64,000 nt of DNA, taken from positions 29,240,078 to 29,304,077 of the forward strand of contig NC_081366.1 of assembly GCF_030684315.1 (NCBI RefSeq). The letters run 5' to 3'. Positions 4,849 through 61,369 of this stretch are shown here, one piece after another (the first letter of the stretch is position 1; each line of letters starts with the position of its first letter). Origin of the DNA: Stegostoma tigrinum (lineage: Eukaryota). Under the pieces are notes generated by a model. It worked only from the letters and a program-made list of their open reading frames with translations. It made no database searches and had not been told where the DNA came from. The position numbers and the translations under genes were made by a program.

Positions 4849-6103
4849 AGATAATGGGAACTGCAGATGCTGGAGAATCCAAGATAATAAAATGTGAGGC
4901 TGGATGAACACAGCAGGCCAAGCAGCATCTCAGGAGCACAAAACCTGACGTTTTGGGCCTAGACCCTTCATCAGAGAGGGGGATGGGGTGAGGGTTCTGG
5001 AATAAATAGGGAGAGAGGGGGAGGCGGACCGAAGATGGAGAGAAAAGAAGATAGGTGGAGAGGAGAGTATAGGTGGGGAGGTAGGGAGGGGATAGGCCAG
5101 TCCAGGGAAGACGGACAGGTCAAGGAGGTGGGATGAGGTTAGTAGGTAGATGGGGGTGCAGCTTGGGATGGGAGGAAGGGTTGGGTGAGAGGAAGAACAG
5201 GTTAGGGAGGCAGAGACTGGTTGGACTGGTTTTGGGATGCAGTGGGTGGAGGGGAAGAGCTGGGCTGGTTGTGTGGTGCAGTGGGGGGAGGGGACGAACT
5301 GGGCTGGTTTAGGGATGCAGTGGGGGAAGGGGAGATTTTGAAACTGGTGACGTTTCTTGCCAATGTGGTATACAGCATCCACTGTACCCGGTGTGGCTTC
5401 CACTACATTGGGGAAACCAAGCGGAGGCTTGGGGACCGCTTTGCAGAACACCTCCGCTGAGTTCGCAACAAACAACTGCACCTCCCAGTCGCAAACCATT
5501 TCCACTCCCCCTCCCATTCTTTAGATGACATGTCCATCATGGGCCTCCTGCAGTGCCACAATGATGTCACCCGAAGGTTGGAGGAACAGCAACTCATATT
5601 CCGCCTGGGAACCCTGCAGCCTAATGGTATCAATGTGGGCTTCACCAGTTTCGAAATCTCCCCTTCCCCCACCGCATCCCTAAACCAGCCCAGTTCGTCC
5701 CCTCCCCTCACTGCACCACACAACCAGCCCAGCTCTTCCCCTCCACCCACTGCATCCCAAAACCAGTCCAACCTGTCTCTGCCTCCATATCCTGTTCTTC
5801 CTCTCACCCATCCCTTCCTCCCACCCCAAGCCACACCCCCATCTACCTACTAACCTCATCCCACCTCCTTGACCTGTCCGTCTTCCCTGGACTGACCTAT
5901 CCCCTCCCTACCTCCCCACCTATACTCTCTCCGCCTATCTTCTTTTCTCTCCATCTTCGGTCCGCCTCCCCCTCTCTCCCTATTTATTCCAGAACCCTCA
6001 CCCCATCCCCCTCTCTGATGAAGGGTCTAGGCCCGAAACGTCAGCTTTTGTGCTCCTGGGATGCTGCTTGGCCTGCTGTGTTCATCCAGCCTCACATTTT
6101 ATT
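4849..6103. mobile_element. Penelope-like (Neptune-type) insertion, fold-back structure: inverted pLTR arm + GIY-YIG C-terminus + pLTR
   Basis: 4885-5350 is the reverse complement of 5642-6103. Spacer encodes NVVYSIHCTRCGFHYIGETKRRLGDRFAEH. Flanked by the 15-bp direct repeat agctagaattatctg (4834-4848 and 6104-6118). Confidence 0.95.
6013..6044 (+). ncRNA. Minimal type-I hammerhead ribozyme motif in the Penelope pLTR, core intact
   Basis: CTGATGA (6015-6021), extra A, stem II gggt-ctag-gccc, GAAA (6035-6038), CG, then TC. Predicted cleavage after 6042. Stem I is only 2 bp. Confidence 0.7.
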
Positions 6104-15144: not shown

Positions 15145-15340
15145 GAGATAATGGGAACTGCAGATGCTGGAGAATCCAAGATAACAAAGTGTCGAGCTGG
15201 ATGAACACAGCAGGCCAGGCAGCATCTGAGGAACACTAAAGTTGACATTTCAGGTGAAGGGCCTAGGCCCGAAACGTCAGCTTTTGTGCTCCTAAGATGC
15301 TGCTTGGCCTGCTGTGTTCAGACAGCTTCACACTTTGTTA
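15145..15340. mobile_element. Penelope-derived palindromic mini-element (subfamily A)
   Basis: Arms are reverse complements around 15255. 16-bp direct repeat tccactatttatttca at 15129-15144 and 15341-15356. Hammerhead core truncated (tgaagggcctaggcccgaaacgtc). Confidence 0.93.
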
Positions 15341-22030: not shown

Positions 22031-22195
22031 GATTATCTATGTTAGCTGAATTCAATGCAAAGCTTGCTTCATCTGAAAATTGCCCTTCTCCTCATGCAGC
22101 ACCATTGGAGATAAACTAGGTAGTGATCTACATGATAACAAAGTGTGAAGCTGGATGAACACAGCAGGCCAAGCAGCATCTCAGAAGCACAAAAG

Positions 22196-22227
22196 CTGAC
22201 GTTTCGGGCCTAGACCCTTCATCAGAG
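22196..22227 (-). ncRNA. Minimal hammerhead motif, core intact
   Basis: Minus strand ctCTGATGAagggtctaggcccGAAAcgTCag. Confidence 0.7.
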
Positions 22228-22909
22228 AGGGGCATGGGGGAGAGGGTTCTGGAATAAATAGGGAGAGAGGGGGAGGCGGACCGAAGATGGAGAGAAAAGA
22301 AGATAGGTGGAGAGGAGAGTATAGGTGGGGAGGTAGGGTGGGGGTAGGTCAGTAGACTTGGGGACCGCTTTGCAGAACACCTCCGCTCGGTTCGCAATAA
22401 ACAACTGCACCTCCCAGTCGCGAACCATTTTAACTCCCCCTCCCATTCCTCGGACGACATGTCCATCATGGGCCTCCTGCAGTGCAACAATGATGCCACC
22501 CAAAGGTTGCAGGAACAGCAACTCATATTCCGCTTGGGAACCCTGCAGCCCAATGGTATCAATGTGGACTTCACAAGCTTCAAAATCTCCCCTTCCCCCA
22601 CTGCATCCCAAAACCAGCCCAGTTCGTCCCCTCCCCCCACTGCATCACTAAACCAGCCCAGCTCGTCCCCGCCTGCCTAACCCGTTCTTCCTCTCACCTA
22701 TCCCCTCCTCCCACCTCAAGCCGGACCTCCATTCCCTACCTACTAACCTCATCCCACCTCCTTGACCTGTCCATCTTCCCTGGACTGACCTATCCCCTCC
22801 CCACCTCCCCACCTATACTCTCGTCTCCACCTATCTTCTTTTCTCTCCATCTTCGGTCCGCCTCCCCCTCTCTCTTTATTTATTCCAGAAGCCTCTCCTC
22901 CATCCCCCT

Positions 22910-22941
22910 CTCTGATGAAGGGTCTAGGCCTGAAACGTCAG
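22910..22941 (+). ncRNA. Minimal hammerhead motif, core intact, stem II variant
   Basis: ctCTGATGAagggtctaggcctGAAAcgTCag. Confidence 0.6.
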
Positions 22942-25404
22942 CTTTTGTGCTCCTGAGATGCTGCTGGGCCTGCTGTGTTCATCCAGCTTCACACTTTGTT
23001 ATCTTGGGTCCTCCAGCATCTGCAGCTCCCATTATATCTGTGATCTACATGACTTGGTTCTCAGCTTTTGACATATCTGTACACTACAAGGATTGTTCTT
23101 ATAGCATTCAGTTACGAGTCAATACATCAAGGAGCAACTTACATTTAAAATATCCATTTTTTAAAAGTTTAGTAAAAATATGGCAAACTCCAATTAATGC
23201 TTAAAATCTGACAACCATCTTAATTTCAGCTGTAAATGTAGCAAGCTGAGGACATGACCGTCATTTTGCCACAGGCCAATCATATTCCCACGAAGCAAGC
23301 AAGGTTATATTTATTAGTTATATCAATCTAAAATACACCACAGCCTGAAAAAAAATCTCATAAAATACCTGTAAAATCTTCACTTACCCTTGTTTTGAAA
23401 GTTTGGTTTACATTCTATTCAAAATTGGCAGAAAATATTGTATGGTAATATTCTAAACATGGCTCCAATTTCAATATTTTTGCTATTTTTATATTTTACA
23501 CAATGATCATTCTACCAAGTACTATTCAAAATCATTCCATAATCAGAAGAGATTATTAATTTCATATAATCAAAGTAAATATTCTACAGGAAATAATGTT
23601 TGTGCTTAAATGATTTTATTCTACAATGTAAACTTTGTACTTTGCTGCTGCCTCTGTTTTCTCCAGCTCTGTACTGACAAGCTGTCTCCAATATTTCGTA
23701 AAAATAGATCTAGGTTTTAATTTGTTTAAGATACTTGTCACTTTGTAATCTGTATTTGCACTTCAGAACTGAAGCTGCTAAAAATAATTGAAACCAGTTG
23801 ATGCATGTAGCGAAAACATGAAATTGTGTCACTGGGAAGTGTTTGAAATACAGATGAATGCTAGAATGTTTAAAAGGTTTTTTTGTATTAATTGGTGGCA
23901 AGGCAATATCAGACTGAAATGCAACCCACACAAAAATGATTCTTTTTCTAAGTGGTACAAGGTTGATTGCTGTAAGTTTTATTTGGTTTTCTCCAGCACA
24001 TTTTTAAAGAGTGATAACTTGAGGGTATTTCAGGTTGCCACCTTTAACTCTCGCAATTTAAGTCTCAAGGTGGGCAATTAAACATAAATGCATATTAATA
24101 TCAAAGATGGCAGAGAGATAATTTCCTTCTAATACCAAAATCATAAACATATTTCCTGACATCATATTTTTTAACAAATATTGCACAAGGAAACCCTAAT
24201 TCCAAAGAGAGTTGATTTGAAGTTATCACAATCGTGTTTCACATTGAAGGAAATTGAAAAACGACATCGAGTTGAAACTCCAACTGTTTGTACATGTGCC
24301 CATTTTGGTTCTGTAGTATAGTGCTTCTGGACTTATGACTTCACTAATATTTATGAAGAAGTTCCAGTGCATTTCAAACTGAAGTTGCTTCTAATTACAC
24401 TGTTTTGCATTGTTTTATCTGAGAAAGAATAAGCTCAAACCATTCATCTCTCCTCCACCAAAGATGCAAACTTATTTTTAGCCCTTCCTTTTATTAATAG
24501 AAAAACTGTGCAGAACACAACAGGGACAGATGAGCTGCCTCAAGGCGAGAGTGCAACATTTCACCTGATCTATCACAACAAAGTGTTTTTTTGTATTCAG
24601 TAGGATTTCCAGACGTTGAAATAGCTTCTCTCGACCTATGAGATGCTGTTAACAGTCTTACTTTGTTGCCCAGAATGTATCCTGCCACCTACTCCACTTG
24701 ATCCAATATTTTTGGCCCAATAATTGTTACAAGGTGTAAACATCACAGCTGCTGTGTTTGCCCAAGTCATTTGAATTAACCTATTGTAGTCACCTCTTTT
24801 TTGTTTTACAATTCATATAGACCACGAAGATTACTAAAAATATCTTGATTATTAGAAGAGGAGCATTAGTTTTTCAAATCAAGCGGCCTAATAAAAAGCT
24901 GTATTCTTTCCACTTGTTTCCACCTTTCCATAAGGAAAGTAACAAACAGCTCACCCCTAAGCTTCAGCATATGATTTGATGCATCAATATATTCTAGCAG
25001 CAAGAATTCCAGGAGTTCACAGCCTGGTGAGCATTTGCACCTCTCCCATCATGTGATTCCACAGAAAGGGTGTAGTGGAGTCTTAATGGTAATTAATTTG
25101 ATGGAAGTTGGGAAGATTGCCTGGAAAATGTCACTATGAGCCACGGTGAGGTAGGTACAATGCATCTCACTCCAAACAATACTAAACCAAAATGGAAAAA
25201 TTCAGCCCTTAATTTCAAATGGGTAGTGACAACAAATGCTGATAGTTCACTGCCAAGCCCTCATAGAGTTCAGGACATTGATTTGGTATTCTGCCACTTA
25301 GTTTGTTTGTTCCTATTTTGAATAACTTTAAAGCCACAGATGAACTCAACCTGCGCTGATTGTTTTTAATTACATGCTGAACACAGCGTAGATTTGGAGT
25401 GCAG

Positions 25405-25820: not shown

Positions 25821-26004
25821 TATGTTAAGAGTAAAAACTGGCATGTGACAGCAAATGTACTGGAAAACAAAATGAGGGAATGAAGGGGAGGAAGGTCCTG
25901 AATAGGTTTGGAATAGCTAGGCACAACTAGGATCCATACAATTCCATTGTTGTCTTGGTCAATTGGGGCTAAGTAGTGATGTTGAAGGAAAAGGTGTTCA
26001 ATGT

Positions 26005-33959: not shown

Positions 33960-36000
33960 AGCTATAGGACAAATAAATGTCGATAACTGTAGATATTGTT
34001 ATCTTCGGCAATCACTTACGAACAAGTGTGATTGTCCACTTGGGAAAATTCGACTATTAGAAAATGGGCCTATATGTTTAGTCCATATTCTTTAATAGAA
34101 GCACAACAAATGGGTTTAGAACTAAAAATGTTGTGCCAAAAGTCATTCTCAGAAATTGAATCAGAAATAGTACCTGAGTGTTATTACTTGAAAACAAAAT
34201 ATTAATGAGGAAATGGAGACTACCTCAAATTCCAGCCAATGAGGAATGGACAGTGGTCCATCAAATAGTTCCATGTGAGTATCTTCATGAAACTTTATGA
34301 GTGGCTCATGATATTCGAAAGGCAGCTCACTTAGGTATTACAAAAACAAGGCTAAAATACTAAAACATCAGATTCATTCTCTTTAGCTTCATCCTTTTCA
34401 GTTAATATTTTTGAAAATTGTACCTTAGAACTGAATTTCCAATTCATGACCCTGCTTCATTGACTCCTATTATTTCCGTGCCGTTCAATGGGCCAGATCT
34501 AGATTCAAAACAAAATGTTTTTATTGGCCCAAATTATACTGAGATGTATTCAACTTTTCCAGGTATGCCATGTGTGTGAGGCCTTGGAGAAACACGAAAC
34601 TCTGAAATAAAATTTCATCTTTAATTCCAACACCATTTTTTGAAGAATGATTCAGCAAGATCCTACAAGGTTGTTCAGGATATCAATCTAAATTTAGAAC
34701 TGGGAGCCAGAAAAGTTTAATGATTATGAATGCTTCCACAAGATTTCGTGAAGCTATGTGTTTTGGAAATGTTACGACAAAAATGATAGTGGAAATGTTT
34801 ATTTTCTTTTAAGATATAGATTACCCAAAGAAATACAATCAGAACAAGGTTCAAACATTATGTTTCCGATATTCTAAGGAATAACGAATAGTTTTGTAAT
34901 AAAACAATTCCCATCTTTTGCTTATCATCCACAACCTGAAGGTTCTTTGGAAAAATTGCATCAAACTCTGAAGACCATTTTAAAACTCTACTACCAATTA
35001 TTGGGTTAAGGGAACTCCTTGGTTACGGTCTATCATGAGAGACACTCCTAATGAGTCCACAGGATTTAGTCCCTTTGAGATAATGTTCGGACATGAAGAT
35101 TAGAAACTATATTTCCAACAAATGTGTAAAATTTCAGAGAGAACCCACACAAAGCCAATCTGTTGGCAGAAAAAGATTTAAAAAGTGCTCACCAAAAATA
35201 TGTTTAAAAAATTAAAGGCTAAAATTCTGTTCCTGGAGACAAGGTACGAATGTTGTTATCCACCTCTGGGGACCCAATAAAAGCAAGGTCGAGTGGGTCT
35301 TATCAAATCATAAAGAAACTCAATTATCTGAATTACGTAAGATAACAAAGTGTGGAGCTGGATGAACACAGCAGGCCAAGCAGCATCTCAGGAGCACAAA
35401 AGCTGACGTTTTGGGCCTAGACCCTTCATCAGAATATATCTGAATTATGTGATGAGTTCAATAGACAGGAGAAAGAAATAGAAAGAATGTTATGTTGACA
35501 TGTTGAAAATAAGAAAGGGACAATATTCAGGAGAATAATGTATTTCGAGTAATGAACGAAATAAGGAGTCAAATGGAAACATCAGAGCAATTGGAGAATG
35601 AACCAGGAATTGGAAGTTCGCAAATTAATCAGATTGGAAAACATCGATGTTCTTAAAGTGTTACACTGCATTATGCCTTATCTTCCAGAAAACTATCAAA
35701 GGTGAATTATGAAGACTGCTACAGAATCACAAATCAATTTGTGAGAATAGGACAGGAAAAATGGTTTGGGCTGATCAAGATGTTAATGCAAGAAATGCTT
35801 TATCTATAAGATAGTATGCATACAGATTCAAACTAGAACCATTTCTTCAGCTGAGGAACAGATTAGGTTCATGATGGACAATGAACTGAGTCATAGTTGC
35901 TGGAACTCACTCATCACAACAGTGCCAAGGCAGGATAGGTCCCAAAGACTCTGTATCGATCATCTTGAGATCAATGTAGTAACAAAAGCAGATTCATATT
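33960..36000 (+). mobile_element. Gmr1-type Gypsy remnant (protease end, integrase, then RT start)
   Basis: ILMRKWRLPQIPANEEWTVVHQIV...AHDIRKAAHLGITKT, FYWPKL...CHVC, AYHPQPEGSLEKLHQTLK, RDTPNESTGFSPFEIMFG, then RT-like WNSLITTVPRQDRSQRLCIDHLEINVVTKADSY. Confidence 0.88.
35341..35433 (-). mobile_element. 93-bp single-arm Penelope pLTR fragment inserted in the Gmr1 remnant
   Basis: Subfamily A arm from tctgatga to ctttgttatc (minus). Imperfect duplication tatctgaattacgtaa (35325-35340) / tatctgaattatgtga (35437-35452). Confidence 0.9.
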
Positions 36001-36654: not shown

Positions 36655-38252
36655 AGAGATAATGGGAACTGCAGATGCTGGAGAATCCAAGATAACAAAG
36701 TGTGGAGCTGGATGAACACAGCAGGCCAAGCAGCATCTCAGGAGCACAAAAGTTGACAGTTCGGGCCTAGACCCTTCATCAGGGAGGGGGATGGGGAGAG
36801 GGTTCTGGAATAAATAGGGAGAGAGGGGGAGGCGGACCGAAGATGGAGAGAAAAGAAGATAGGTGGAGAGGAGAGTATAGGTGGGGAGGTAGGGAGGGGA
36901 TAGGTCAGTCCAGGGAAGATGGACAGGTCAAGGAGGTGGGATGAGGTTAGTAGGTAGGAAATGGAGGTGCGGCTTGAGATGGGAGGAAGGGATGGGTGAG
37001 AAGAAGAACAGGTTAGGGAGGCAGAGACAGGCTGGGCTGGTCTTGGGATGCAGTGGGTGGGGGGGAAGAGCTTGGCTATTTGTGGGATGCGGTGGGGGAA
37101 GGGGAGATTTTGAAGCTGGTGAAGTCCACTTTGATACCATTGGGCTGCAGGATTCCCAAGCGGAATATGAGTTGCTGTTCCTGCAACCTTCGGGTGGCAT
37201 CCTTTTGGCACTGCAGGAGGCCCATGATGGACATGTCATCTAAAGAATGGGAGGGGGAGATAAAATGGTTCGCGACTGGGAGGTGCAGTGGTTTATTGCG
37301 AACCAAGTGGAGGTGTTCTGCAAAGCGGTCCCCAAGCCTCCGCTTGGTTTCCGCAATGTAGAGGTAGCCACTTCGGGTACAATGAATACGGTATACCACA
37401 TTGGCAGATGTGCAGGTGAACCTCTGCTTAATATGGAAAGTCATCTTGGGGCCTGGGATGGGGGTGAGGGAGGAGGGGTGGGGACAAGTGTAGCACTTCC
37501 TGCGGTTGCAGGGGAAGGTGCCGGGTGTGGTGGGGTTGGAGGGCAGTGTGAAGCGAATAAGGGAGTCACGGAGAGAGTGGTCTCTCCGGAAGGCAGACAA
37601 GGGTGGGGATGGAAAAATAGCTTGGGTGGTGGCGTCGGATTGTAGATGGCAGAAGTGTCGGAGGATGATGCGTTGTATCCGGAGGTTGGTGGGGTGGTGT
37701 GTGAGAACGAGGGGGATCCTCTTTGGGCGGTTGTGGCGGGGGCGGGGTGTGAGGGATGTGTTGCGGGAAATGCGAGAACACGGTCAAGGGCGTTCTCGAC
37801 CACTGCGGGGGGAAAGTTGCGGTCCTTGAAGAACTTGGACATCTGGGATGTGCGGGAGTGGAATGCCTCATCGTGGGAGCAGATGCGGCGGAGGCGGAGG
37901 AATTGGGAATAGGGGATGGAACTTTTGCAGGACGGTAGGTGGGAGGAGTATTCTAGGTAACTGTGGGAGTCGGTAGGCTTGAAATGGACATCAGTAACTA
38001 GCTGGTTGCCTGAGATGGAGACTGAGAGGTCCAGGAAGGTGAGGGATGTGTTGGAGATGTCCCAGGTGAACTTGAGGTTGGGGTGGAAGGTGTTGGTGAA
38101 GTGGATGAACTGTTCGAGCTCCTCTGGGGAGCAAGAGGCGGCGCCGATACAGTCATCAATGTAACGTAGGAAGAGGTGGGATTTGGGACCTGTGTCGGTG
38201 CAGAAGAGGGACTGTTCCATGTAACCTACAAAGAGGCAGGCATAGCTGGGGC
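36655..38252 (-). mobile_element. 5'-truncated Neptune-type Penelope element: RT (YIDD), Cys linker, GIY-YIG, pLTR with tail; frameshifted
   Basis: PSYACLFVGYMEQSLF...LRYIDDCIG...FLDL...KPTDSHSYL (ORF 37441-38220). GTFPCNRRKCYTC...NVVYRIHC...YIAETKRRLGDRFAEH (ORF 37076-37600). Same pLTR as 4849-6103. Hammerhead GAAA mutated to GAAC. Confidence 0.96.
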
Positions 38253-38404
38253 TTGTTTATTTCAGTCAAATCTCATTCAGCATTACTCCCTGAAGTTAAA
38301 GTATCTAATTTCTAGCTGTAGTTCACGGTGTAAAGCATACTTTATCAATATTTTTGAGCACCAACAAATTTATAGTTAATGAATGGTCACTTCACCCAAT
38401 TCAG

Positions 38405-40904: not shown

Positions 40905-41138
40905 AAAAAACGGAAAGGACTGTGGATGCTGTAAGCCAGGATCAAATACAGAAGTAACTAGAAAAGCTCAACAGACTTGGCAGTGTCTGTGAAGATAAAA
41001 TCAGAGTTAACATTTTGGGTCCGGTAACTCGACCAGAGCGGGTCTGAAGAAGGGTAAACGGATCCGAAATGTTAACTCTGACATTTTTCTTCACAGATGC
41101 TGCCAGACCCGCTGAGCATTTCCAGCAACTTCTGTTTT
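40905..41138. mobile_element. Penelope-derived palindromic mini-element (subfamily B) with + strand hammerhead core
   Basis: Arms inverted around 41035. CTGAAGA-a-gggtaaacggatcc-GAAAtgTT from 41044. Degenerate duplication atactgcctctagt (40891) / atgctgcccctaat (41141). Confidence 0.88.
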
Positions 41139-42660
41139 CAATGCTGCCCCTAATCCCTCCGACTGACTTCCCAACTCCCCTACCACCCAAATAGCCCCTT
41201 ATAACTCTCACTGACTTTCAGGAAACTTACTCCTGGGCCTGTTAGTCACCTACCCTGCCCTGACTGACTTAGGAGGACTACTCCAACTGATGACTGACCA
41301 GATCCCGAACTGATCTCTGTGTTGTTCATGCTCCTAGTCTCCAGACTGACTGCATTGGATTTACAAGACTAGCCATGGCCCAATCCCAGAGTTATAGTGA
41401 CAAGGAAGTCTTGTCCCTAACCAGCCCAAGAGGCTGACTGTGCCCAAGCCCCAGAACTGAGATTAAATTTTGCCCTTAACTGACTGTGATGGACCGCCTT
41501 GACTGATGACAATTTTTCTTGAATTGACTGAGGACTACTACCTTGAAACTTAGAAACATGTGTATTTCATAGATCCACGTTCTGTGTTGGCCTCAAAAGC
41601 TCTTGAAATACGCTGTAGTTTTGACAATGATGTAGCACAGTGCCTTATGGCAACATATCTGCCACCTTGATTGATAATTGCTGACAACCATGGCAAACCT
41701 GCCTGGATTGCTGTAAAAAGGCAAGTCAAACCAGAAGCACTTTTTAGCCTGTATATACTGAAAGAAGTGACAAAGTACAAAATGTTAAGGCAAAGAAGAA
41801 ATGCTGTGGGCACAAAGTGAAGATCCCTGAGATGTGCCCTGCTCCCAGGTATGAGATGTGTACCTGTATGCAAAATGTCCTGACAGGTGCATGGCAATGA
41901 AAAGTGCCGGGGCTCTCCAAAGTGCGGCACAGAGCTGTATTTCTAGTGAATTAGAGATGTGCCATGATGATGTTGTCAGGCCGGTGTGTATCTAATGCCA
42001 AAGTCTGCTGACAGGGTGCTACCCATGGAGCATGTCCGGAAATGTTGGAGACTGCTAGCCAAGTCAGAGAAGCAGAGACGTACGCAGCGAGCTGGAGTTG
42101 TTAGGTAACCACTCTATCTTTCATGTCAGGAGTTGGTGCCGTCTAGCTGTCACTGAATGGGAGAAGAGCAAACAGTATACAAATGAGGTAAGACTAGGTG
42201 ATACGACATGTTAATATATGAAAATTGACCGCTTGAGATACACTAATGAGATTCTTTCCTCACCATTCAACATTCGGGTGCAAAATCGGACTTTTTTTCT
42301 CGACATCAAGGATCTAATTTTTGTGATCTTACCACATTTCCTGAATTGAATTGCCAGCCTCCCCATCATTCCTCTTATTGCTGTCTTGTTAATTTGTTGA
42401 CTTCACTTTTATTATGCTTATTATTTCAATGATCACCCAGCATAAAATACAAATTTCTTGACTTTTCTATTCAGCTGATAACTATTACAGAAACTATGAC
42501 TAATGATTTTTGCGCTCACCTCAACAGGCAGACATTAGATTTGTTCTTTACTTCTTCACAGCCTTTTGCAAAGGAATACAAATGGTCAGACAGCATTGAA
42601 CATAGAATAATCATCTGCTAGTGTTTTCTCTGTATATTATGCCAGTTTTTAAATGGAACC

Positions 42661-42750
42661 AAAGAAGAGTCATTAGACTCAAAACATTAACTCTGTTTCT
42701 GTCTCAAAAAATACTGCTAAATTTTCCAGAATTCGCTTGTTTTCATTTTC
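42661..42750 (+). mobile_element. Degraded single arm of a subfamily-B-like Penelope mini-element
   Basis: aagaagagtcattagactcaaaacattaactctgtttct parallels gaggaagggtcaccagacccgaaacattaactctgttttct. Confidence 0.65.
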
Positions 42751-44446
42751 GCTCTACAACAACAAATCTTATTCGAGTACAACTGCATCAGTTAAGTTAT
42801 CTCATCTGTACAAAGCATGCTTGCCAACAATCCTTGCTCATTCAAGGCTATTCTGTAAGATAATAACAGGTTTCTTCATGGAATTATTCATGATATCTCA
42901 GCTGGAAGCTCACAATTCCCTATAGAAGCAAGAAACAATAATGTATGAAAATACTTTGACCTGGGACTTTAATTCACATCCCAGTAGACCATACAGAGTG
43001 ATTGCACTTCATGAATTTTTCTTCAATTTTGTGAAGATTGCATTACCTTATTACTTTCTGCACATTCTTATTACAGCATGACTATGGCAGCTGGAAAGCA
43101 CCTGATTAGGAGTTCCCTCATCTCATGTCATAATTTGAGCCTGAAGACCAATGAATAGGGGGTAAACAGAATTTCTGTATGAGATCCCTTAATGGTTCAG
43201 TGGTGAATTTCAGTATGTGGTGTCATGTTCAGGAGATGTATAGAATGGTCTCTAAGCTAAAGAGCTAGCTATCCTTTTGATCAGCAAGTAAAACCTTGAA
43301 ATGAGGAAGTGTGACAGATGTGAAGAGTTCACAGCACTAAAAGAGATATTGAAGTTATATTAGGGCGTTAAACTGGGTTGAATATGAAACTGAGTACAGG
43401 CTTTGCAATGTTCAATTAAGCCATCCCTGTTCAGTGTAATGTGGTCACCATACCATTTTTGGACAGCCTGCTCATCACCATTTTTATTTGTAGCTAGGAC
43501 TGCCCATGTTAATTCGTTGGCTGCATGCATCAGCTGGGAGACCTGCATCATTTGTACATTGCACTCCATGAAGGTAACATGTGCCCATTTTAGATGAGGT
43601 AGATTGGTAGGAGCAGATGTCAGTTCTGTTCTGCAGCTAAATCAGACCTGGGAAAAAATGAAGAATGGCTGAAAAGTTAGGAGACTCCAAGGTTTTTTGG
43701 AGAAAGCACTGATATCTTCATTGAGAACGGAGAAAGGAAGATAATCTGAAATGGATCAGGGATGGTGGATAGGAAACTAAGAAAACACAGAGTATGAAAG
43801 AGTGGGAACAGACAATTGAATGTGTCACTTCCAGGATCAGGATTTCATGAGTTGAAATGTTTACTGTCCCTCTCTCACATACATCGTCTGAACTCCACCT
43901 CTAGTATGACTGTCTGCCCAGAGCCTGTTCAGACTCAAACTAGCATTAGGTGACTCTGAGAGAGATTTCCAGCCAGATCTGAGGGTAAAGTTCTACCTTC
44001 TCCTGCTGCTGACTAATCTTATTAACTGCCAGCACTTTAAACTCAATCACTGGTGAGATTCAGTGACAGCAATGGCCCTTGCTGGGACCTTCTCATCCGA
44101 ATGATGAACACGCAGGAAGGGAATGATAGGTAAAGTTGGGGACTCGTGACAATGCCAGGAGAGGAAACTCCAAGGAGAAAGGTGCTGAGGGGATTGCAGC
44201 CTGGGGCACTCAGGCCAAAAACATCAGGGAGCAGACGTTGAATGGGAGGCATCCGATAGAACAGGGAGGCCCTAAAGGAGGCAGAAGGCCAAAGCAGACT
44301 TTCATCCTGGGATTTCTATTCAACAACAACTCCTCCCACCAACTAAAATATTGTGATCTGGTGAGACTGGCCAACATCTCACCGATTAAATCATGGCCTT
44401 CTTGAGGGCTGGCAGTAGATATTTGAAACCGCATGCACAACACTTT

Positions 44447-44592
44447 AAATAAAAACCGAAAGAGCTGCGGATGCTGTAAATCAGGAACAAAAGGGAAGGG
44501 TCACCGGACCCAAAATGATAACTCTGTTTTCTCCTCCACAGATGCTGCAAGACCTGCTGAGCTTCTCCAGCAACTTTGTTTTTGTTCCTGAT
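44447..44592. mobile_element. Penelope-derived mini-element (subfamily B): inverted tail + one arm
   Basis: 44447-44492 is the inverted tail, then ggaagggtcaccggaccc...gttcctgat. Duplication atgcacaacacttt (44433-44446) / atgcacaacatttt (44591-44604). Confidence 0.88.
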
Positions 44593-46160: not shown

Positions 46161-47214
46161 TGCTTCAAGGCATCACAGCAGTGCATCGATCAATCCTCTG
46201 TCAGATTGTTAGGATTGCAGAGAAGTTACACGAGGCGTAACAGTGGTTCAATGCCTTCTATCAGTATGATGTCTTTTTGTCCAATACCACGCTGCCAGTG
46301 TCCTCAATATTGTCAGCTAACCTTCCCAGAGAGCTGCCATCTATACAAAGTCGGGCAATGGAAAGCTATGTATTCCAAGATAAGTGCACATTAAGCTCAT
46401 TCTTCAAGGCATCTACATGACCCCACCCAGTGCAAGTCAGCCCACTTCCCCCAGTATTGATATGCACTACAGTGGGCAAAGCACCACAAAGACAGTCAAT
46501 AAGGGAATGCACCAGTTTGTTCAGATTGATGTTGTATTTATAAATTGAAATTGTATTTTTGTACTTTATAGTAGCTTTACCTTTGCATTGTGAGCAAGAA
46601 GCCAAGATGCGAGACATCAGCGTCAGAGGGAAGGTAAGGACTATGAAGAAAGAGGAATTGGGGTTGAGCCAAGCACAGCAGAACCCTCCAAAGAGGTCCA
46701 TACAGTGAAATTTATTCCTTCCTGGTAACAATCCTGCCAAAAGTTCCATTAGATTTCTTGTGGCAGTGTGGCTGTCATTATATGCATGGCTCATCTGTGT
46801 CAGTTAGCTGCAAATTAGGACATTCAACAATATCATTTGAGATTAATCTTTGTAACCTGGTAATCACTGTTTGATTTGCCCATGCAGACTGAAATATTGC
46901 ATGGGGTTATACATCATGACTCCTTCCAGTGTTTGCTGTTCCCTTTATTTTGAATGCTCTAAGTTGGGGGTAATATGTGAGCTAAAGGGATCATGATGCA
47001 AAGGTGATGTAAGACTACAGGAATAGAAGAGCATCTGGAGCGAGATTGCATGGAGGACATACCCTGAGGCATTTTAGGTCCATGAACGTAACAATAATTA
47101 GGCTGTAAATACAAAGTTATTGATCAATTATTCAGAATACTCCGGACTCATTCAAGAGACAATAAAACCCCCTTTCACCCCACCCAGAAGACAAAATATT
47201 GTGAAAACCTATTC

Positions 47215-47432
47215 AGAGATAGTAGGAACTGCAGATGCTGGAGAATCTGAGATAACAAGGTGTGGAGCTGAATGAACACAGCAGGCCAAGCAGCATCAGA
47301 GGAGCAGGAAGGCTGATGTTTCGGGTCTGGACCTTTCTTCCGAAGAAGAGTGCAGACTCGAAACATCAGATTTCCTGCTCCTCTGATGCTGCTTGGCCTG
47401 CTGTGTTCATTCAGCCCCACACCTTGTTATCT
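47215..47432. mobile_element. Penelope-derived palindromic mini-element (subfamily A variant), two decayed hammerhead cores back to back
   Basis: Arms inverted around ttcttc|cgaagaa (about 47341). Shared flank tgaaaacct at 47202-47210 and 47437-47445. Confidence 0.92.
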
Positions 47433-47544
47433 ATCTTGAAAACCTGATGTGTTCACATCCAGTTCACTCTTTCCTGGCAACAGCTCACACTTACATAAAC
47501 ACTTTTCAAAGAGGAATATGTCATAGGGTGCCTGACAGACTGTA

Positions 47545-48968: not shown

Positions 48969-49039
48969 AAGGTCAGATCCCAAAACTAATCCTTGAGACA
49001 ACTCACACATTTTTTAACCAATATAGTCTCAGTAATTAG

Positions 49040-54239: not shown

Positions 54240-56760
54240 GTTGTCGATCATATTCACTATCCTTTGGCTAATTAACCATATCAAAACTGTTGCTTCTCAA
54301 TAAACCAATTAAATCTCAAAACTCACTAATAAAATTGCGACAAGTCATCATTAGGTTGGGTGTGTTACCTTTGTTAGGTATGTGTGACTGTGAACCCCCT
54401 AAAATCAACACTGAGATAAAAATGTTGCATTCAAGGAAGTATTTTCACCAGCATTTTTTTCAACTAGCATTGCAACCAAAGATTTATGTTTGATTTCAAT
54501 CATGACTTTGAGGCCTAGAAAATAATCAGGACATATTCCACAAGCCCACGTAACGGCTAAAGCTTCTTTCTTGACAATGGCATACAGATTTATGTATTGA
54601 ATAATGCTTTTGTAACGCTTGGGCTTTTGATATCCTTCCAGATGTTCCTACAGAAGAACTGCCTCCAAGTCTGTGACTGAGGCATCTGCAGCAATAGTTA
54701 TGGGATATGTTCAATTGTTATGGGCTAAGACATCAGTGGAAATCAGTATGGCCATAATATTCTGAAAGATTGCTTGTTGCTCTGTGTGCCACTTCTTTAA
54801 GAGATTTCTCAAGGGGCTCTCTAACAAAGGCAGGATGTTGTGAAAAGAAAAGCTTCACCAGTTGATTTATCATAGTGAGAAACTGTTGCAGATCATGTGC
54901 CAAATTTGAAATCAGTAATTCTTTAACTGTATTGCCTTTCCAGGTATCAGTTTGTATTCCATCTGTTTGATTATGTGACCTCAGAAAGAAATAGCATCTC
55001 TGGAAAATGTATATTTGTCATCCAGTATAAGACCTGTTGCTTATAACCATTACAGGACATATGATATATGATGTTATCTCGTTCCTGTAAAATGTTAAAA
55101 GTAGTGTGATGGAAAATCCCTGATGCTGAATTGCTACCAAATCATATTCTGTTGAAATGGCATCACTTGAAAGGGTGATAAAGATGGTGAAGCAGCGAGA
55201 TGTCTCATCAAAAGCGATCTTCCAAACCTGACTATTGACCTCCAGCTTCTTAAATATTCTACTGGTGGAAGATTGAGTGAAACTTCATCAGATGTGCACC
55301 TAAGATGGATTTCCCCAGCAACTGCTTTATTGAGCTCTGTGAGAGCCTTTCAAATTCACACAAAGCCAAAGAGTTTGAGTGTAGTGACCATAGCTGAGCA
55401 CCATTCTGTCGGTTCAGTCACGAAACAAACAATGCCCATAAGGACCATGTCCTCCAATTGTTTCTTTACACTTTCAGTTACCGAATGAGGGGTTTTCCAA
55501 TGTGCAAAGATGCATTTTGGTTTAGTAGCAGCTTTCAAAGAGATTTTATAAGACATTTCGAGTTTCCCAGTCTAGTAAACAGATTAGGATATCAATACTA
55601 AACGACAATTTTCTCAGTGTGTGAGTTCCTCTCATCTGCACAGGAGGCTGGTGACAAGAGATGACTTCCTCTTCAACAGGCAAGGTTGCTAGTTACTGAT
55701 GATGTATTTCTCCACATATGTGTGATCTTTAAATGTCAGTCAGTACAACAGGCAATATCCCTTTAAATAAAGTTACAGTACATCTGCTGCACACAGTTTT
55801 ACATCAGATAGTAAAATATTTATCTCTATTAACAATGTGGCATCATCCAAAGTGACTGTGACATTGGTACCAATATCTATATAATATTCACCAGGATAAT
55901 CAATTGTGTAAATGATATCTGTCTACATCATGACTGTTGAATTTTTTTCCTGTGGAACTGTAATGTTAGCCTTTCCTAGGTAGCTGATCTTCAATGAAAT
56001 AAATTTGTTTCCTGCAGTCTTGTCATGTTCTTCACAGATTTTGAAACGACATTAGTGACAAGTATTTGATTGCTTACAATTTCATGTCGATGTTGTCGCA
56101 TGTGGTATATTATTCTGAATAAAAGTCAGTCTCTTTTAATCAGATGGTTTATTGTGCCTTAAGTTGCTGGTGGAATGTTCTGCCTTCACTGGAATTTTTG
56201 CTGATAATTCTTCCTGTGCAGTTTTCTAGATTTTATATCCAATGCGACTTGGACTGTGTGTAGAGTTAAATCCTCTTTTAATTGCAGGAGATCAATGATT
56301 GATTTATCTAATAGGCTAATGACAATGCAGTCACAAATAAGTTCTTGTTGTAATTTTCCATAACAGCATGGCTCAGATAATATGTACAGGTCATTAATGA
56401 AACTATCTAACAACTCTACTGGAAGTTGATATCTGCTATTAAAGTATGATCTCTCCAGTCCTGTATTTGATCTTACTTTGAAATATTGCCCAAAACCCAT
56501 TATGAGGTTGTCAAATGTAACTTGACTATCACTGAGCTGTTGTCTAACATGTAATTTGACTTTGTTGTTATACAACAGAGAATAGTGCCTACTTGTTCAA
56601 CAATTGATTTGGTTTCTAGTGCTGAAACTGTTTGAAATCTTAGAAATTATGTTTGCAACATCTGACAATTTGGTGGATTATCAAATGGATCTAAAAGCTT
56701 AATTCTTTTTTTTCTGATGGTCAGATTAGTACAGACAAATTAAATTGCATTATGTGATTT
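54240..56760 (-). mobile_element. Gypsy remnant: gag, protease, RT, RNase H
   Basis: gag ERSYFNSRYQ...DSFINDLY...ELICDCIV. RT VTEPTEWCSAMV and GHII.QDGIQTD. RNase H TIAADAS and YAIVKKEALAVTWAC. Confidence 0.92.
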
Positions 56761-56992
56761 TTCACAGGCATTTGAAAGTGCTGACTATCTTGTTGATTTG
56801 AATAATGATTGAAAGGATTTCAATCTCATCATACTGCGCTGATTTTGTTGCCTTGTTGTATTCTTTATTAAAATTGTTGTTTATTTTTTGTTTTGTCGTA
56901 CTACTACCGAAATCTGTTAAAGTTTCAACTATTTAATCGCTGTTTTCAAAGTAAAATGTGGTTTTACCTGATCAATACGGAGGCAGAAACAA

Positions 56993-57636
56993 TACAAAAA
57001 AAACTGCAGATGCTGGAATCCATGATAGACAAACAGGGGGCTGGAAGATCACAGTAAACCAGGCAGCATCTGGACAAAAGAAGTAGTCAACTTCTCAGGT
57101 ATTACCCTTCTTCAGGTTTGGATGTGAAGGCGGGGGAACTGCAGATAAACGTGGGAGGGGGAAAGATAGTGGAACAGTGGTGATATGCAGACACCAGTAG
57201 GTATGACCTGGTTGGTTGATGGGAGGGACAAATTTGTTTGGTAACTGGAAGGGAGGACCAGTAAGTGGAATGGAAAGGAGGAGGTGAGGGATGGGTGGGA
57301 AGGTTATTTGAAATTGGAGAACTCAAAGTTAAGTCCGCCAAGATGTAGGGTGCTGAGGCTGAAGATAAGCTGTTGTTCCCACCCATTCCCTGGCTCCCTT
57401 TCCAGCCCCACCTCCTCCCTTCCATCCCACCTACCAATTCTCTCTTTCAGCTACCAACCAGATTCATACCCACCATTGACCAACCAGGTCATACTCACTA
57501 CCAGAGTCTGTCTCTCACCTCCATTCCACCACTCACCCCCCCAACTTTACCTGCAACTCCCCCTACCCCACACATCCAGTCCTGAAGAAGGGTAACACCC
57601 AAAATGTTGGCTTTAACTTTCCTCAGATGCTGCTTC
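56993..57636. mobile_element. Penelope-like fold-back insertion (subfamily C), older
   Basis: 57060-57300 inverted against about 57385-57635. Minus strand EQQLIFSLSTLHLGGLNFEFSNFK-stop (GIY-YIG C-terminus). Decayed hammerhead CTGAAGAagggtaacacccaaaa at 57582. Confidence 0.85.
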
Positions 57637-57659
57637 CAGGAGGAAGCCTTGCCACGGCA

Positions 57660-58490
57660 TCCACTCAAGGTTCTGTGGCTTCTACCTCGGAGGCGGAAGA
57701 GGAGATACCTTGTGAGGCCCCCCTCTTGAAGTTGGAGGTTATGCAGATTTCACTAGGACCCAGAGGGAAAAACAGAGAGAATGCATTAGAAAAAGAGTAG
57801 GATTTGGGCATGTTAACAATATATTTACAGTGATGGTTATCAGATAGCAGCACAGCAATTGACAATTAATCTTATTTCCTTGCCAGGACATGGAAGTTTC
57901 TGTATTACCATATGAGCAACCATGTTCCTCTCCTATTAAGGCAAGGAGGGAGTGAGTACATGAATATGGACATTCCACTGCCATATTTGGCTTTCTTTGC
58001 CCAATTATGGACCATTTTCTCCTGAAATGAGGCAAAAGCTGATTAAATTGGCTGGCACAGCTTTTAAGGCTGTTCGCAAGTATATGAGTAGGCAGCACAG
58101 ATGGTGTGCAGGTTTACTAGTGTGGGTGTTTAGAGTGGGTGAGAGTGAATGGTGGAAGGCGCTGTATGCAATTTAGAGAGTGGTTGACCATGAACCCTGT
58201 AGGGAGATGGGTGCAGTAGCAGAATTATAATGAGTGAGATGGCAGAGAAAAGATGGTGTACTTATCCTCAAGGAGTGTAGGAAGCCTTTCTCCTGTGCTG
58301 CCTGACTGTCCTCCAGACTGTGGAAATAGCACTGATCTGGGTGGCAACCTTGGTCCAGGCTGGCAGGACCTAGTGTTGTGATCTCCTTTGGTCTCCTTGA
58401 AGAAAAGTCCTCTGTATCAGAACTCTGCATCACTCTATCCGTCAAAACCTCAACCATGTGGCAAGGCAGGGAGCTAGCTTGCCTCTCTCA
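57660..58490 (-). mobile_element. Intron-containing Harbinger Myb/SANT-like gene remnant
   Basis: Exon 1 VEVLTDRV...PAWTKVATQISAISTVWRT ends at 58266 with mutated donor ataagt. Acceptor tcatttcag then exon 2 from 58021: EKMVHNWAKKAKYGSG...ALIGEEHGCSYG. Confidence 0.7.
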
Positions 58491-60529
58491 ACCATCTATG
58501 GGACAATTCTTCAAACACAGGAACCATTCATGGCAGGTCTAGACAGACAATGCTTGGCCTGGTGCACAATCCCAGAAGACCCTTAATTCTGCTGCTGATA
58601 AGGAGCAGTCAGCAACATCAGAGGCTAATAGATGAATAATGAGGCAAGCTGTAGAGAATAGAGTGAGAAAATCTAACAGGGCTCAAAAAAAAAATTCTTT
58701 GTGAAACTCCCTCAAATTGACACTTATCTGGTTTCTGGTGAAATTCAGGCCAATGGCTTGATCCCACTGGGCTGAAGATGTTGGTTTTCATTAGAAATGT
58801 GGCAGAGGTGAGGAAGCAATTAGACAACAGGCTCACAAGTAGTTGGGCCCAATATACCAGATCCCTATTAGCGACTCTAAGAGGAATCCAGTAACAGTGA
58901 GTATGAGCAGTCAAAGTTGAAAGGGTAATATTTTCTTCAGCATTAATTGCATTTAGTGTGAAGAAAACTATATAAATTTTAAGTGTATGTGATGGAAACG
59001 GTCTCGCTTTCTTATCATCCAAGTGATGCCAATATTATACAGTCTGCATGATGCAGCCTGATGCTTTCTTTAGTGGGTCAGCAAGATATCTCCTCAGCTA
59101 ATCTGTTATATCTTGTCACAGCAAGATGTAAATGAGAAATTAGTCTGTATTCAATTCAGCAAGTATCATGTCTTTGATGTTGGTTTAGATTGACAGTCCT
59201 ACACATGAGAGAACATTTTTGAATTCTATTTTTGACTGACAGTTTTGATTAATTGTGAATGATACCTTTTTTTTAATCTCGTGTTGTGCCAGCCCAAACA
59301 TCAAAAGAAAAGGGAATCATATGATCAGACTGGCGGTCAATGCTTCTAATCCGCTGTGTCACTAATGCATTGGACACTTAATGAGAGCTTCTTTGAAGTC
59401 ATTGCTCATAAAAAGCTTTTCATCCTGGATACATAGTTAAATATGTTCGAAGTTTTTTTTACTACTTTTTAACATTAATACAAGTGTACTGTTCATTAAG
59501 TTTGTCCATCCAGTTGTTACCCTTTTGCAATTTTATTTTTGTTTCAAATACAAATGATATTTTCCATCAAACCACATGTTTTGACAGTATGACATTTTCT
59601 AGCTGTTTTAGGGGATTTGTTATCACAGTATGCTGTTTTTATTACTTCTGCTGCAAAAAGAGGCCAATGTTTTCTTTTCAACAATGGTAACCCAGATTAT
59701 AACAGGATAATGTGTTTCAGTTCAAATGGAGAATTGGCAAACCTCTGGAAGCTGATTTCTGACAAAAGAATAGAGAAGTTGATCAAATTATGATATTGGC
59801 TATTGTTTTGCACTTTTTAATCATTGAAGAAGTTCTGAAACAATTTCCCTAAATGTACATACGATGCGCACTATCCAATTTGAGTTTCACCAGAATATGA
59901 ATGAGCAGTGCAAAAATTAACTTATTAGCAATGTTCTTTAATCAACATGAAGACCATAGAAGGCAAAGAAAACTTGTCAAATTGCAAGCTGCCCAGAGCT
60001 TTTGCAGCAAATGGTGTTTTTCGTTTCTTACTAGTAACCCACCATCAATTCACCCGATTAAAACAACTATACAATTAACAAGAACTGTTTACCAGAAGCA
60101 GTGCTAACAACAAAAGTAGGTAAGAATAGGAAAAGTGGGAGGGAACTAAATTAAAATGGAAGCAAAGGCAAATTATTACTTACACTTATTGGTAAAAGCT
60201 TTCTCAACTGAGTGTTGCCACTGATTATGCACGATCAATTAATTTCTCATCTTGTGCCAGCCTGCTTTTCTGCCCAATTTTATCTGAATAAAAAATGTTG
60301 CCCCCATTTTCAGATTATCCAGTAAATAGTGACACTTATTTTTTTGAGAATGACATGTGATATTTAACTGATGGCACGTTGATTCAAATTGGGTTGGGGG
60401 CAGCTATTTAACTACTAACATAGACTTGTCAGAATAGACATGCTAAACACATGCATGTATTAATTAAAAAAAACAAGCTTGCTGGAAAAGCTCAGTAGGT
60501 CTGGCAGCATCTGTGGAGGAGAAAACAGA

Positions 60530-60566
60530 GTTAATGTTTCAGGTCCAGTGACGCTTCTTCAGAACT
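60530..60566 (-). ncRNA. Minimal hammerhead motif
   Basis: Minus strand gtt-CTGAAGA-a-gcgtcactggacct-GAAA-ca-TT-aac. Stem II has a mismatch. Confidence 0.5.
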
Positions 60567-60573
60567 CAGAACA

Positions 60574-60609
60574 GTTCTGAGGAAGGGTCACCAGACCCGA
60601 AACATTAAC
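60574..60609 (+). ncRNA. Minimal hammerhead motif
   Basis: gtt-CTGAGGA-a-gggtc/acca/gaccc-GAAA-ca-TT-aac. Stem I gtt:aac, extendable with gaaca:tgttt. Confidence 0.65.
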
Positions 60610-61369
60610 TCTGTTTTCTCCTCCACAGATGCTGCCAGATCTACTGAACTTTTCCAGCGACTTTGTTTTTGTTCCTGATTTACAGCATCCGCAGTTCTTT
60701 TAGTTTTTATTTAGTATTAATTAAAAGTTCATTATTATCATCAACTCGATTCTACCTGATTTTACAGATTTAATTTCATTTACATAAGAGGTTGCAGCTA
60801 TTTAAAGATAACCAGTGACATTTGAACATTTGTAAAGACTTGAGTCAGGTAAAAAAAAAGTTGACAGTAACTTTCTAGATGTTAATGGGTGTGAAAAACA
60901 AAGGCCCAATATTTCCTTTCTACTTTGGAGTTTTAACTCATCTGTCAGCCACTTTTGGCTCTGCCAGAATAGTAATGTAGCTAGGTTAGCCCACACATGT
61001 GGCTACCAATTGACAGCAAAGAATTTATTCCTACTTAACCTTGTTAAGTAGGAAAGGAAGAAATACAAAAGGAAGAAAAGATTTAGAAACCGCTTCTGGT
61101 TCCTGAAACTAAAATGCCCTTTCAATCTATTCCTGTAAGCAACACAGTCAGTAGCAATCTCAACTTTCAGATTATTGGGTAGTCATTATGGACTTCGGAG
61201 GGTTGGTATGAAATTGATGGGCTAAATAGCCTCTACACTGTAGAGAGTCAATGGCTTTAGAGATATCTGTGGCATGAACGAACACATTACATCATTAGGA
61301 TCCAATGACAGCTATAAACTAGCATGGCTGTTTATTGCAGGTGAGCAACTAGTCATGGATTACAGGTTT

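What the first reader, a model, noticed from the sequence alone, without database searches (positions are those of the whole stretch)
60457..60726. Palindromic ~150-250 bp retro-mini-elements carrying hammerhead ribozyme motifs (best example of a family)
Seen: a 244-bp fold-back element with a hammerhead core on each strand, placed back to back, and a perfect 13-bp target duplication. Similar elements lie at 15145-15340, 40905-41138, 44447-44592 and 47215-47432, from two sequence subfamilies. Established: Penelope-like elements carry minimal hammerheads in their pLTRs. Inference: these look like MITEs but are Penelope-mobilised, non-coding, ribozyme-centred elements. They could self-process or form a ~100-bp dsRNA hairpin whichever strand the host transcribes. 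Five in 64 kb implies very high genomic copy number. I cannot tell whether this family is already catalogued.
Basis: partly seen in the sequence, partly recalled or inferred. Interest (0 to 1): 0.75.

Follow-up and report, generated by a model that had tools for sequence, protein, structure and literature searches.

The report
Truncated fold-back Penelope insertion in shark
This 244-base palindrome is real, but it matches the known "inverted copy plus one-sided tail" footprint of Penelope-like jumping genes, is likely a dead-end insertion product rather than a self-propagating element, and its two decayed ribozyme motifs are predicted to be locked inside the hairpin.

Summary
Observation confirmed: a 244-bp fold-back (arms 101 nt, 89%) sits between exact 13-bp duplications, with a minimal hammerhead (min-HHR) core on each strand. 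The reading as a ribozyme-centred mini-element is mostly unsupported. The same build (two head-to-head 3' ends, a 35-45-nt tail on one arm only, 9-16-bp TSD) occurs in the window from 0.15 to 1.25 kb. The long copies carry Penelope-like (Neptune-type) GIY-YIG coding sequence, and this architecture is published. Junctions differ at each locus; public contigs of this family cross the E60 junction at 0.04% of arm depth. Only 1 of 5 minis has both cores. Catalytic G12 decays like a tail CpG (25% vs 27%). The hairpin (-160 kcal/mol) abolishes stem II on either strand. The scan's earlier notes on two other genomes say the same. One detail I did not find in print: 5' ends pile up at the ribozyme's 5' edge (11 of 19 arms here; the four commonest listed 5' ends in contigs), never at the cleavage site. 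That may mark the RNA's 5' end. Interest 0.3.

The parts
60457..60469 (.). Target-site duplication, left copy (13 bp)
60470..60566 (-). Tail-less arm: pLTR 3' end from -4 to +93 (C of CUGA = +1)
60533..60562 (-). Decayed minimal hammerhead motif (stem II mismatch, CG>CA at 15.2/16.2)
60567..60571 (.). 5-nt junction insert CAGAA, a copy of adjacent left-arm letters (templated insertion inferred)
   Evidence: junction letters; parental upstream differs (loose ends)
60572..60673 (+). Tail-bearing arm, part paired with the left arm (-5 to about +97)
60577..60606 (+). Decayed minimal hammerhead motif; cleavage would fall after 60606; CG>CA at 15.2/16.2
   Evidence: (G at 60604 in 48% of depth in X1)
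60674..60713 (+). 40-nt 'tail' present on one arm only
   Evidence: depth step and loose ends at 60709
60714..60726 (.). Target-site duplication, right copy
15145..15340 (.). E15: mini fold-back, subfamily A, TSD 16, tail on left arm, no core on either strand
40905..41146 (.). E41: old mini fold-back, subfamily B, tail on left arm, core on + only, no convincing TSD
44443..44590 (.). E44: inverted insertion with barely overlapping arms, subfamily B, TSD 10 (14 with one mismatch), no core
47211..47436 (.). E47: mini fold-back, A-related subfamily, TSD 9, junction inside the CUGA core on both arms
35336..35436 (-). E35: single tail-less arm starting at the core, TSD 11
42664..42744 (+). E42: old single arm, subfamily B, starts inside the core
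4849..6103 (.). E5: long fold-back, subfamily A, TSD 15, contains GIY-YIG coding sequence
22136..23039 (.). E22: long fold-back, subfamily A, TSD 13, intact min-HHR on both strands, contains part of the endonuclease ORF
36655..38256 (-). E36: 1.6-kb 5'-truncated Penelope-like copy: RT 3' part, CX4CxxC linker, GIY-YIG, pLTR with tail (frameshifted)
56991..57633 (.). E57: old 0.64-kb fold-back of a third subfamily, right arm breaks off at +53, no TSD

Best explanation
The palindrome is two head-to-head copies of the 3' end (pLTR) of a Penelope-like retrotransposon family between a 13-bp target duplication, likely laid down in one abortive insertion and likely inert since.

Shown: anatomy, length series, link of subfamily A arms to RT/GIY-YIG sequence, one-sided tail, locus-specific junctions, CpG decay of the core.

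Inferred steps: (1) the element's protein nicks both strands 9-16 bp apart at an AT-rich site. (2) Each nick primes reverse transcription on uncleaved element RNA, one at the outer start site (tail, +126 to +137) and one at the inner site (+89 to +101). (3) Both cDNAs usually stop at the ribozyme's 5' edge, most likely because priming occurred in the 5' pLTR copy and the RNA ends there ('strong-stop'-like product; about 45%), or because RT pauses at the folded or protein-bound ribozyme (about 35%). (4) The two cDNA ends are trimmed and joined, here with a 5-nt templated insert. The ribozyme is a passenger of the pLTR. Confidence is about 0.85 for 'Penelope insertion by-product' and about 0.6 for twin priming in detail.
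For: Length series with one build: E44 148, E15 196, E47 226, E41 ~242, E60 244, E57 ~640, E22 904, E5 1255 bp. E5, E22 and E36 hold endonuclease/RT coding sequence 41-52% identical to RT+GIY-YIG proteins P0042/P0052, and 87-89% to a Stegostoma protein.

Tail on exactly one arm in 7 of 7 two-armed elements (E57 left out because its right arm is broken); 0.008 if the ends chose independently at 50:50. This matches Craig 2021 and Arkhipova 2013. Frangieh 2024 shows in vitro that a PLE protein nicks and extends both strands, starts internally at two sites that delimit the tail, and uses uncleaved RNA.

Inner ends differ at each mini: -5/-4, +3/+3, +5/+17, <=-1/+10, +5/+93. In run X1, depth over the 15 left-arm letters 60547-61 is 406 against 938,006 at 60577-91 (0.04%); 58 of 60,491 records run over either end. 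None of 19 arms ends at the cleavage site (+31).

G12 G>A is 25/28/18% against tail CpG G>A 27/26/18% in X1/X2/X5. Stem II pair probability is 0.000 in the whole transcript on both strands, against >=0.996 for the isolated + arm. In 4 of 7 elements the tail-less arm reaches further 5' than the tail arm, which fold-back of a single cDNA cannot give. Unrelated PLE families in metagenome contigs show the same small build: L037, 240 bp between 11-bp repeats, tail on one arm; L016, 14-bp TSD.
Against: No autonomous parent of subfamily B (E60's own) was seen; its link to coding sequence rests on about 70-74% similarity to A-related arms and on architecture. Ends are not randomly spread as plain 5' truncation predicts: they cluster at the ribozyme, as a defined short template would also give. 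The contig test is biased: contigs break in repeats (E60's own junction is not in a listed long piece), symmetric strand-switch joints are absent from the 15 rows shown (141 unseen), and hairpins may be under-sampled, so the share of fold-backs and of recurrent junctions is not measured. No TSD was found for 4 of 11 elements (E36, E41, E42, E57). A few contigs show the -4..+135 unit head to tail (2-3 per run), as a circular or tandem template would give. No whole genome was available. No RNA was tested.
Confidence: 0.8

Rival explanations
1. A dedicated short non-autonomous RNA (the ~140-nt unit from -5 to +137, SINE-like or retrozyme-like) is transcribed from short source loci and inserted in trans as solo, tandem or inverted copies; the palindrome still forms at insertion.
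For: The commonest listed 5' loose ends in contigs are 60572-60575 (X1: 996, 764, 866, 753) with mostly unrelated AT-rich flanks, and the 3' end is 60709 (864). A few head-to-tail joints 60711>60573 (2, 3, 3 contigs in X1, X2, X5). Solo arms E35 and E42 start at the core. PLE-derived non-LTR retrozymes are reported in a chondrichthyan.
Against: The same pLTR sits on long ORF-bearing copies in the window with the same two 3' ends. A minority of B copies continue into a shared upstream sequence. Tandem joints are under 1% of ends at those positions. It cannot be told from the 'strong-stop' variant of the best explanation without RNA 5'-end data.
Confidence: 0.2
2. The whole palindrome is a master element, transcribed and retrotransposed as a unit, with working ribozymes.
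For: High copy number (about 56,000-60,000 contigs laid in each of three runs); E60 has a core on both strands; depth across the junction is about 70 times single-copy, so some tens of loci may share a similar centre.
Against: Five different junctions in five minis; 0.04% depth across the E60 junction; 7 of 10 arms lack CUGANGA; G12 decays like a control CpG; stem II is abolished in the hairpin on both strands.
Confidence: 0.06
3. Minis are what remains after recombination between the two direct pLTRs of a longer [inverted pLTR][pLTR-ORF-pLTR] insertion, as in solo-LTR formation.
For: That three-pLTR build with a TSD is described in rotifers; recombination would keep the TSD, the one-sided tail and a unique junction.
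Against: In the two long fold-backs with a clear junction (E5, E22) the inverted arm joins internal ORF sequence directly, with no direct pLTR beside it; E44's 47-nt arm is hard to get this way.
Confidence: 0.08
4. The inverted arm forms by self-priming (fold-back) of one cDNA or of an antisense template, as proposed by Arkhipova 2013, instead of priming at both nicks.
For: Near-symmetric centres in E60 and E47; arms of one element are usually closer to each other than to other loci (E47 94% vs 79-88%; E60 91% vs 86-87%).
Against: In E5, E15, E41 and E44 neither arm is contained in the other; E15's arms are only 85% alike while E15R is 93-94% like E22/E35 arms.
Confidence: 0.2

Closest known systems
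Complex insertions of canonical EN+ Penelope-like elements: pLTR + adjacent inverted 5'-truncated copy + 30-40-bp tail + TSD (Craig 2021 PMC8557442; Arkhipova 2013 PMC3846280; Schostak 2008 PMC2377424)
   Same: Head-to-head inverted copies, tail at one end only, variable 8-16-bp TSD, min-HHR in the pLTR, C-terminal GIY-YIG parent; CX4CxxC linker as in Neptune/Nematis.
   Different: Both arms are so short that no ORF remains; very high copy number in a shark-like genome; 5' ends pile up at the ribozyme's 5' edge, which the passages I read do not describe.
[quoted passage not shown]
   Same: CUGANGA, one extra base before stem II, G10.1-C11.1, palindromic CG at 15.2-16.2, no helix III, ~4-bp helix I; that paper notes dual min-HHRs 100-700 bp apart on opposite strands and many solo motifs from truncated PLEs.
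   Different: Here the two cores are only 14 bp apart, both have lost the CG, and both lie inside a 100-bp hairpin.
Non-LTR retrozymes (Li, Clavereau, Pollet bioRxiv 10.64898/2026.07.22.740005)
   Same: Non-coding, derived from PLE pLTRs, carry type I hammerhead motifs.
   Different: Retrozymes are head-to-tail tandems with at least two complete ribozymes on one strand; these are head-to-head with one decayed motif per strand.
MITEs of DNA transposons (definition recalled, no call)
   Same: Short, non-coding, fold-back, high copy, flanked by a TSD.
   Different: TSD length varies (9-16), ends are asymmetric, length is continuous up to ORF-bearing retroelement copies.

Membership tests
EN+ Penelope-like element insertion | Parent ORF with RT and C-terminal GIY-YIG with CCHH | tested here: met
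   Subfamily A: E36 matches P0042 (Pfam RVT_1 and GIY-YIG above cut-off) over RT and endonuclease, 41-51%; the window's own piece gives only a weak GIY-YIG hit (E 0.036; none at 0.001)
EN+ Penelope-like element insertion | An ORF-bearing parent for E60's own subfamily B | tested here: inconclusive
   None in the window; 70-74% similarity to A-related arms; a minority of contigs share an upstream sequence
EN+ Penelope-like element insertion | Inverted 5'-truncated copy joined head to head | tested here: met
   8 two-armed elements of 11
EN+ Penelope-like element insertion | 30-40-bp tail at one end only | tested here: met
   7 of 7 intact two-armed elements; E57 left out
EN+ Penelope-like element insertion | Variable-length TSD | tested here: met
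   9, 10, 11, 13, 13, 15, 16 bp in 7 of 11 elements; none in 4
Neptune/Nematis clade | CX2-5CxxC linker between RT and EN | tested here: met
   C-NRRK-C-YT-C in frame 37076-37783; definition
Neptune/Nematis clade | RT phylogeny placing it in Neptune | not tested
   No tree built; no clade-labelled references at hand
Minimal hammerhead (min-HHR) | CUGANGA + extra base + G10.1-C11.1 stem II + GAAA + palindromic 15.2-16.2 + UH | tested here: met
   Met for the family (E5R, E22L, E22R intact; G at 60604 in 31-59% of depth); E60's own copies fail at 16.2
Minimal hammerhead (min-HHR) | Self-cleavage as dimer or with protein | not testable with these tools
   Needs in vitro assay; fold predicts sequestration in the palindrome
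Non-LTR retrozyme | Head-to-tail tandem with at least two complete ribozymes on one strand | tested here: not met
   All multi-arm elements in the window are head to head; only 2-4 contigs per listed joint show tandem units
MITE | Symmetric terminal inverted repeats, fixed TSD, uniform length | tested here: not met
Catalogued Repbase/Dfam family | Match to a library consensus | not testable with these tools
   Neither library is available here

The most novel reading that the evidence does not exclude
Shark fold-back minis are 'strong-stop' twin-priming products. A Penelope protein dimer primes both nicks on the 5' pLTR of its RNA, one subunit at each of the two internal start sites, and runs off the RNA's 5' end just upstream of the hammerhead. 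Roughly 10^5 genomic copies would then record the transcription start, both priming sites and the cut geometry of the still unresolved Penelope insertion reaction.
Probability: 0.35. Interest if true: 0.6.

Novelty: new member of a known kind. Interest (0 to 1): 0.3.

Why it matters
As an object it is ordinary: a Penelope insertion footprint that annotation tools would mislabel as a MITE or a microRNA hairpin. As a population it may be useful. How Penelope-like elements make inverted copies and one-sided tails is called unresolved in the papers read, and a family with very many short copies, two fixed 3' ends and a sharp 5' hot spot gives a natural data set to test twin priming. Many ~100-bp hairpins in introns could also feed dsRNA pathways, which was not tested here.

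Tried and rejected
No whole genome is held for this window, so no assembly-wide junction census was made. Rfam gave no hammerhead match; its mir-3202 and MIR528 hits are below gathering score and reflect the hairpin only. Pfam at E<=0.001 gave nothing for the two broken frames of E36. The ribozyme pattern found 0 loci in viral contigs. No RNA holder was listed. Run X17, of unknown kind, had 387 records laid and was not used as evidence on expression; its G12 change (about 14%) is lower than its tail CpG (24-33%) on 26-32 contigs, which I do not interpret. Summed contig depth (arm/flank ratio 0.6-6 x 10^5) is not a copy number according to the tool and is used only as an order-of-magnitude hint.

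The 46 metagenome loci have no nucleotide match to the window. In their main family (32 loci, 21 distinct after my rough de-duplication, which may have merged distinct loci) 5' ends do not cluster at the core: 2 of 21 lie within about 20 nt (L019, L037), though the search needed an intact core. So the hot spot is not shown to be general.

Rejected: ribozyme cleavage as the cause of the junction (0 of 19 arms end at +31); MITE; tandem retrozyme. Eight paper searches found no description of these shark elements or of a 5'-end hot spot at the ribozyme. The library lacks most subscription papers, Repbase and Dfam, and no supplements were read, so absence from print is not established. A look-up of earlier scan findings by sequence found nothing.

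Full report
1. Observation. Window 60470-60713 (244 bp, E60) lies between exact copies of GTATTAATTAAAA at 60457-60469 and 60714-60726. In 500 random position pairs, an exact repeat of 13 or more arose once. The arms are 101 nt and 89% complementary, and the RNA folds at -159.9 kcal/mol (z -19.6). Numbering the C of CUGA as +1, the right arm runs -5 to +137 and the left arm -4 to +93, so 40 nt (60674-60713) are on one side only. Five letters (CAGAA) at the centre belong to neither arm and repeat adjacent letters. Each arm has CUGANGA, an extra A, a 5-bp stem II, GAAA and no helix III, the min-HHR layout of Cervera and de la Pena. Both read GAAACAUU where the family has GAAACGUU, and the left stem II has a mismatch. 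Rfam lists no hammerhead among 9 matches.

2. Context. The window holds 11 pieces of this kind, 8.8% of its length. A 1.6-kb copy at 36655-38256 (-) carries the 3' part of an RT, a CX4CxxC linker and a GIY-YIG domain in broken frames. Its best protein match is a Stegostoma protein at 89%, then Chiloscyllium at 60-65%, so the host is probably a carpet shark. The linker points to the Neptune/Nematis type; no tree was built. The same 3' end forms fold-backs of 0.9 kb (E22) and 1.25 kb (E5) with 13- and 15-bp TSDs and endonuclease coding sequence inside, and minis E15 and E47. E60, E41, E44 and E42 form a second subfamily about 70-74% alike to the first; its coding parent was not seen. Arms end at one of two places, +89 to +101 or +125 to +137, except the broken E57R at +53. 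All 7 intact two-armed elements have one of each (0.008 under independent choice).

3. Master element or formed at insertion? The five minis have five junctions: -5/-4, +3/+3, +5/+17, <=-1/+10 and +5/+93. Laying public contigs on 60547-60996 at 80% likeness placed 60,491, 58,145 and 56,042 records in runs X1, X2 (same species label) and X5 (another species), nearly all on the arm. Depth over the left-arm letters was 406 against 938,006 over the core in X1. Listed strand-switch joints are many and small (1-6 contigs each; 15 joints shown, 141 not). Limits: contigs break in repeats, symmetric joints are not among the rows shown, and depth is not a copy number. One X5 contig covers 60689-60996 with 19 differences and 4 gaps, including 25 nt of the tail, so the insertion likely predates the split of the two species.

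4. Is the ribozyme the point? Probably not. Seven of 10 mini arms lack CUGANGA. Across the family, G12 changes to A in 25, 28 and 18% of depth and C11.1 to T in 25, 21 and 19%, against 27, 26, 18% and 28, 28, 21% for a CpG in the tail (depth-weighted, one control CpG). On either strand the antisense arm comes first, and stem II has probability 0.000 in the full transcript against at least 0.996 in the isolated + arm. None of 19 arms ends at the cleavage site (+31), in line with Frangieh 2024, who found uncleaved RNA to be the main template and no reads at the cut site.

5. The unexplained part. Eleven of 19 arms have their 5' end between -5 and +17: 3.5% per base there against 0.19% upstream (p 1.5e-8). 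That p is overstated. The window was chosen after seeing the data, arms of one element are not independent, and very short arms would be missed. Five ends were set by hand or from BLAST (E15L +17, E41L +10, E44L +93, E5L -380, one E57 arm -300) where the aligner overran or stopped short. Independently, the commonest 5' loose ends listed are 60572-60575 (-5 to -2) in X1 and X2 and 60572-60574 in X5 (916 rows unseen). The reference lacks parental sequence above -5, so longer copies pile up at 60572, but letters before 60573-75 are mostly unrelated (agreement 0.32-0.35). An unrelated family in metagenome contigs shows the same small fold-backs (L037, L016, L025) but no clear hot spot (2 of 21).

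6. Mechanism. Frangieh 2024 showed that a Poseidon protein cuts and extends both strands, is predicted to be a dimer, and starts internally at two sites about 110-150 nt into the ORF that delimit the tail. I infer that each nick primes one cDNA, one from each site, giving the TSD, the head-to-head arms and the one-sided tail. In 4 of 7 elements neither arm contains the other, which argues against simple fold-back of one cDNA, though junction trimming could mimic this in the short cases. Because the priming sites also exist in the 5' pLTR of the mRNA, and the Drosophila transcript starts inside the pLTR, priming there would give short cDNAs ending at the RNA's 5' end, followed by trimming and end-joining. 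Pausing at the ribozyme, or a dedicated short RNA, are the rivals. None of these steps was tested.

7. What is known. Craig 2021: an inverted 5'-truncated copy often adjoins the 5' end and a 30-40-bp tail is often at one end only (passages). Arkhipova 2013: inverted pLTRs with 8-10-bp TSDs, optional 31-bp tail, junction palindromes, self-priming model (passages). Cervera 2014: dual min-HHRs about 100-700 bp apart on opposite strands, monomers inactive (parts 1-2 of 4). Frangieh 2024: parts 1-2 of 4 read. Li 2026 preprint on retrozymes: parts 1-3 of 5. Schostak 2008 and a Heliconius preprint that mentions short non-autonomous Penelope elements: passages. No supplements were read; they, Repbase and Dfam may already hold this family. 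Hammerhead numbering and the MITE definition are recalled. Two earlier notes of this scan on other genomes reach the same reading; my reading was stated before I saw them, and they are not independent evidence.

8. Verdict. Real feature, known architecture, new member of a known kind; interest 0.3. The 5'-end hot spot at the ribozyme's edge is the only part worth following.

Noticed in passing
window 11972-12671: 700-bp stretch bounded by 86-nt inverted repeats at 97.7% identity, unrelated to the pLTRs, with no hammerhead motif and no TSD found.
   Followed up: no
window 60572-60574 and E57 right arm, the same positions before CUGA: Subfamilies B and C have CAG at -5 to -3 after a pyrimidine-rich run, like a 3' splice site; in Drosophila Penelope the intron ends at the 5' edge of helix I. 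Subfamily A lacks it.
   Followed up: no
window 60701-60711 joined back to 60572-60573 (table 5): A few contigs hold the ~139-nt unit head to tail, a retrozyme-like tandem arrangement.
   Followed up: no
window 15145-15340: The two arms are only 85% alike while the right arm is 93-94% like E22/E35 arms; possibly two different RNA templates in one insertion.
   Followed up: partly
window 25635-25916 (-): Old Penelope-like RT fragment, 36-40% to P0001/P0002.
   Followed up: no
window 60604 and 60643 with their left-arm partners: Both E60 arms share the variant A at 60643 (the family has G in about 93% of depth) and A at 60604: same source copy or conversion between arms.
   Followed up: partly
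L037 and L046 (same locus), -170 to +80 around the motif; L016; L025; L044: Unrelated Penelope-like families in metagenome contigs form the same 140-550-bp back-to-back hammerhead palindromes; TSDs of 11-14 bp were found for L037, L016 and L025, while L044 is cut by the contig end.
   Followed up: partly
window 529-1080 / 48487-48686; 3144-3490 / 17853-18192; 26220-26830 / 49038-49612: Other old dispersed repeats, 63-74% alike, not identified.
   Followed up: no
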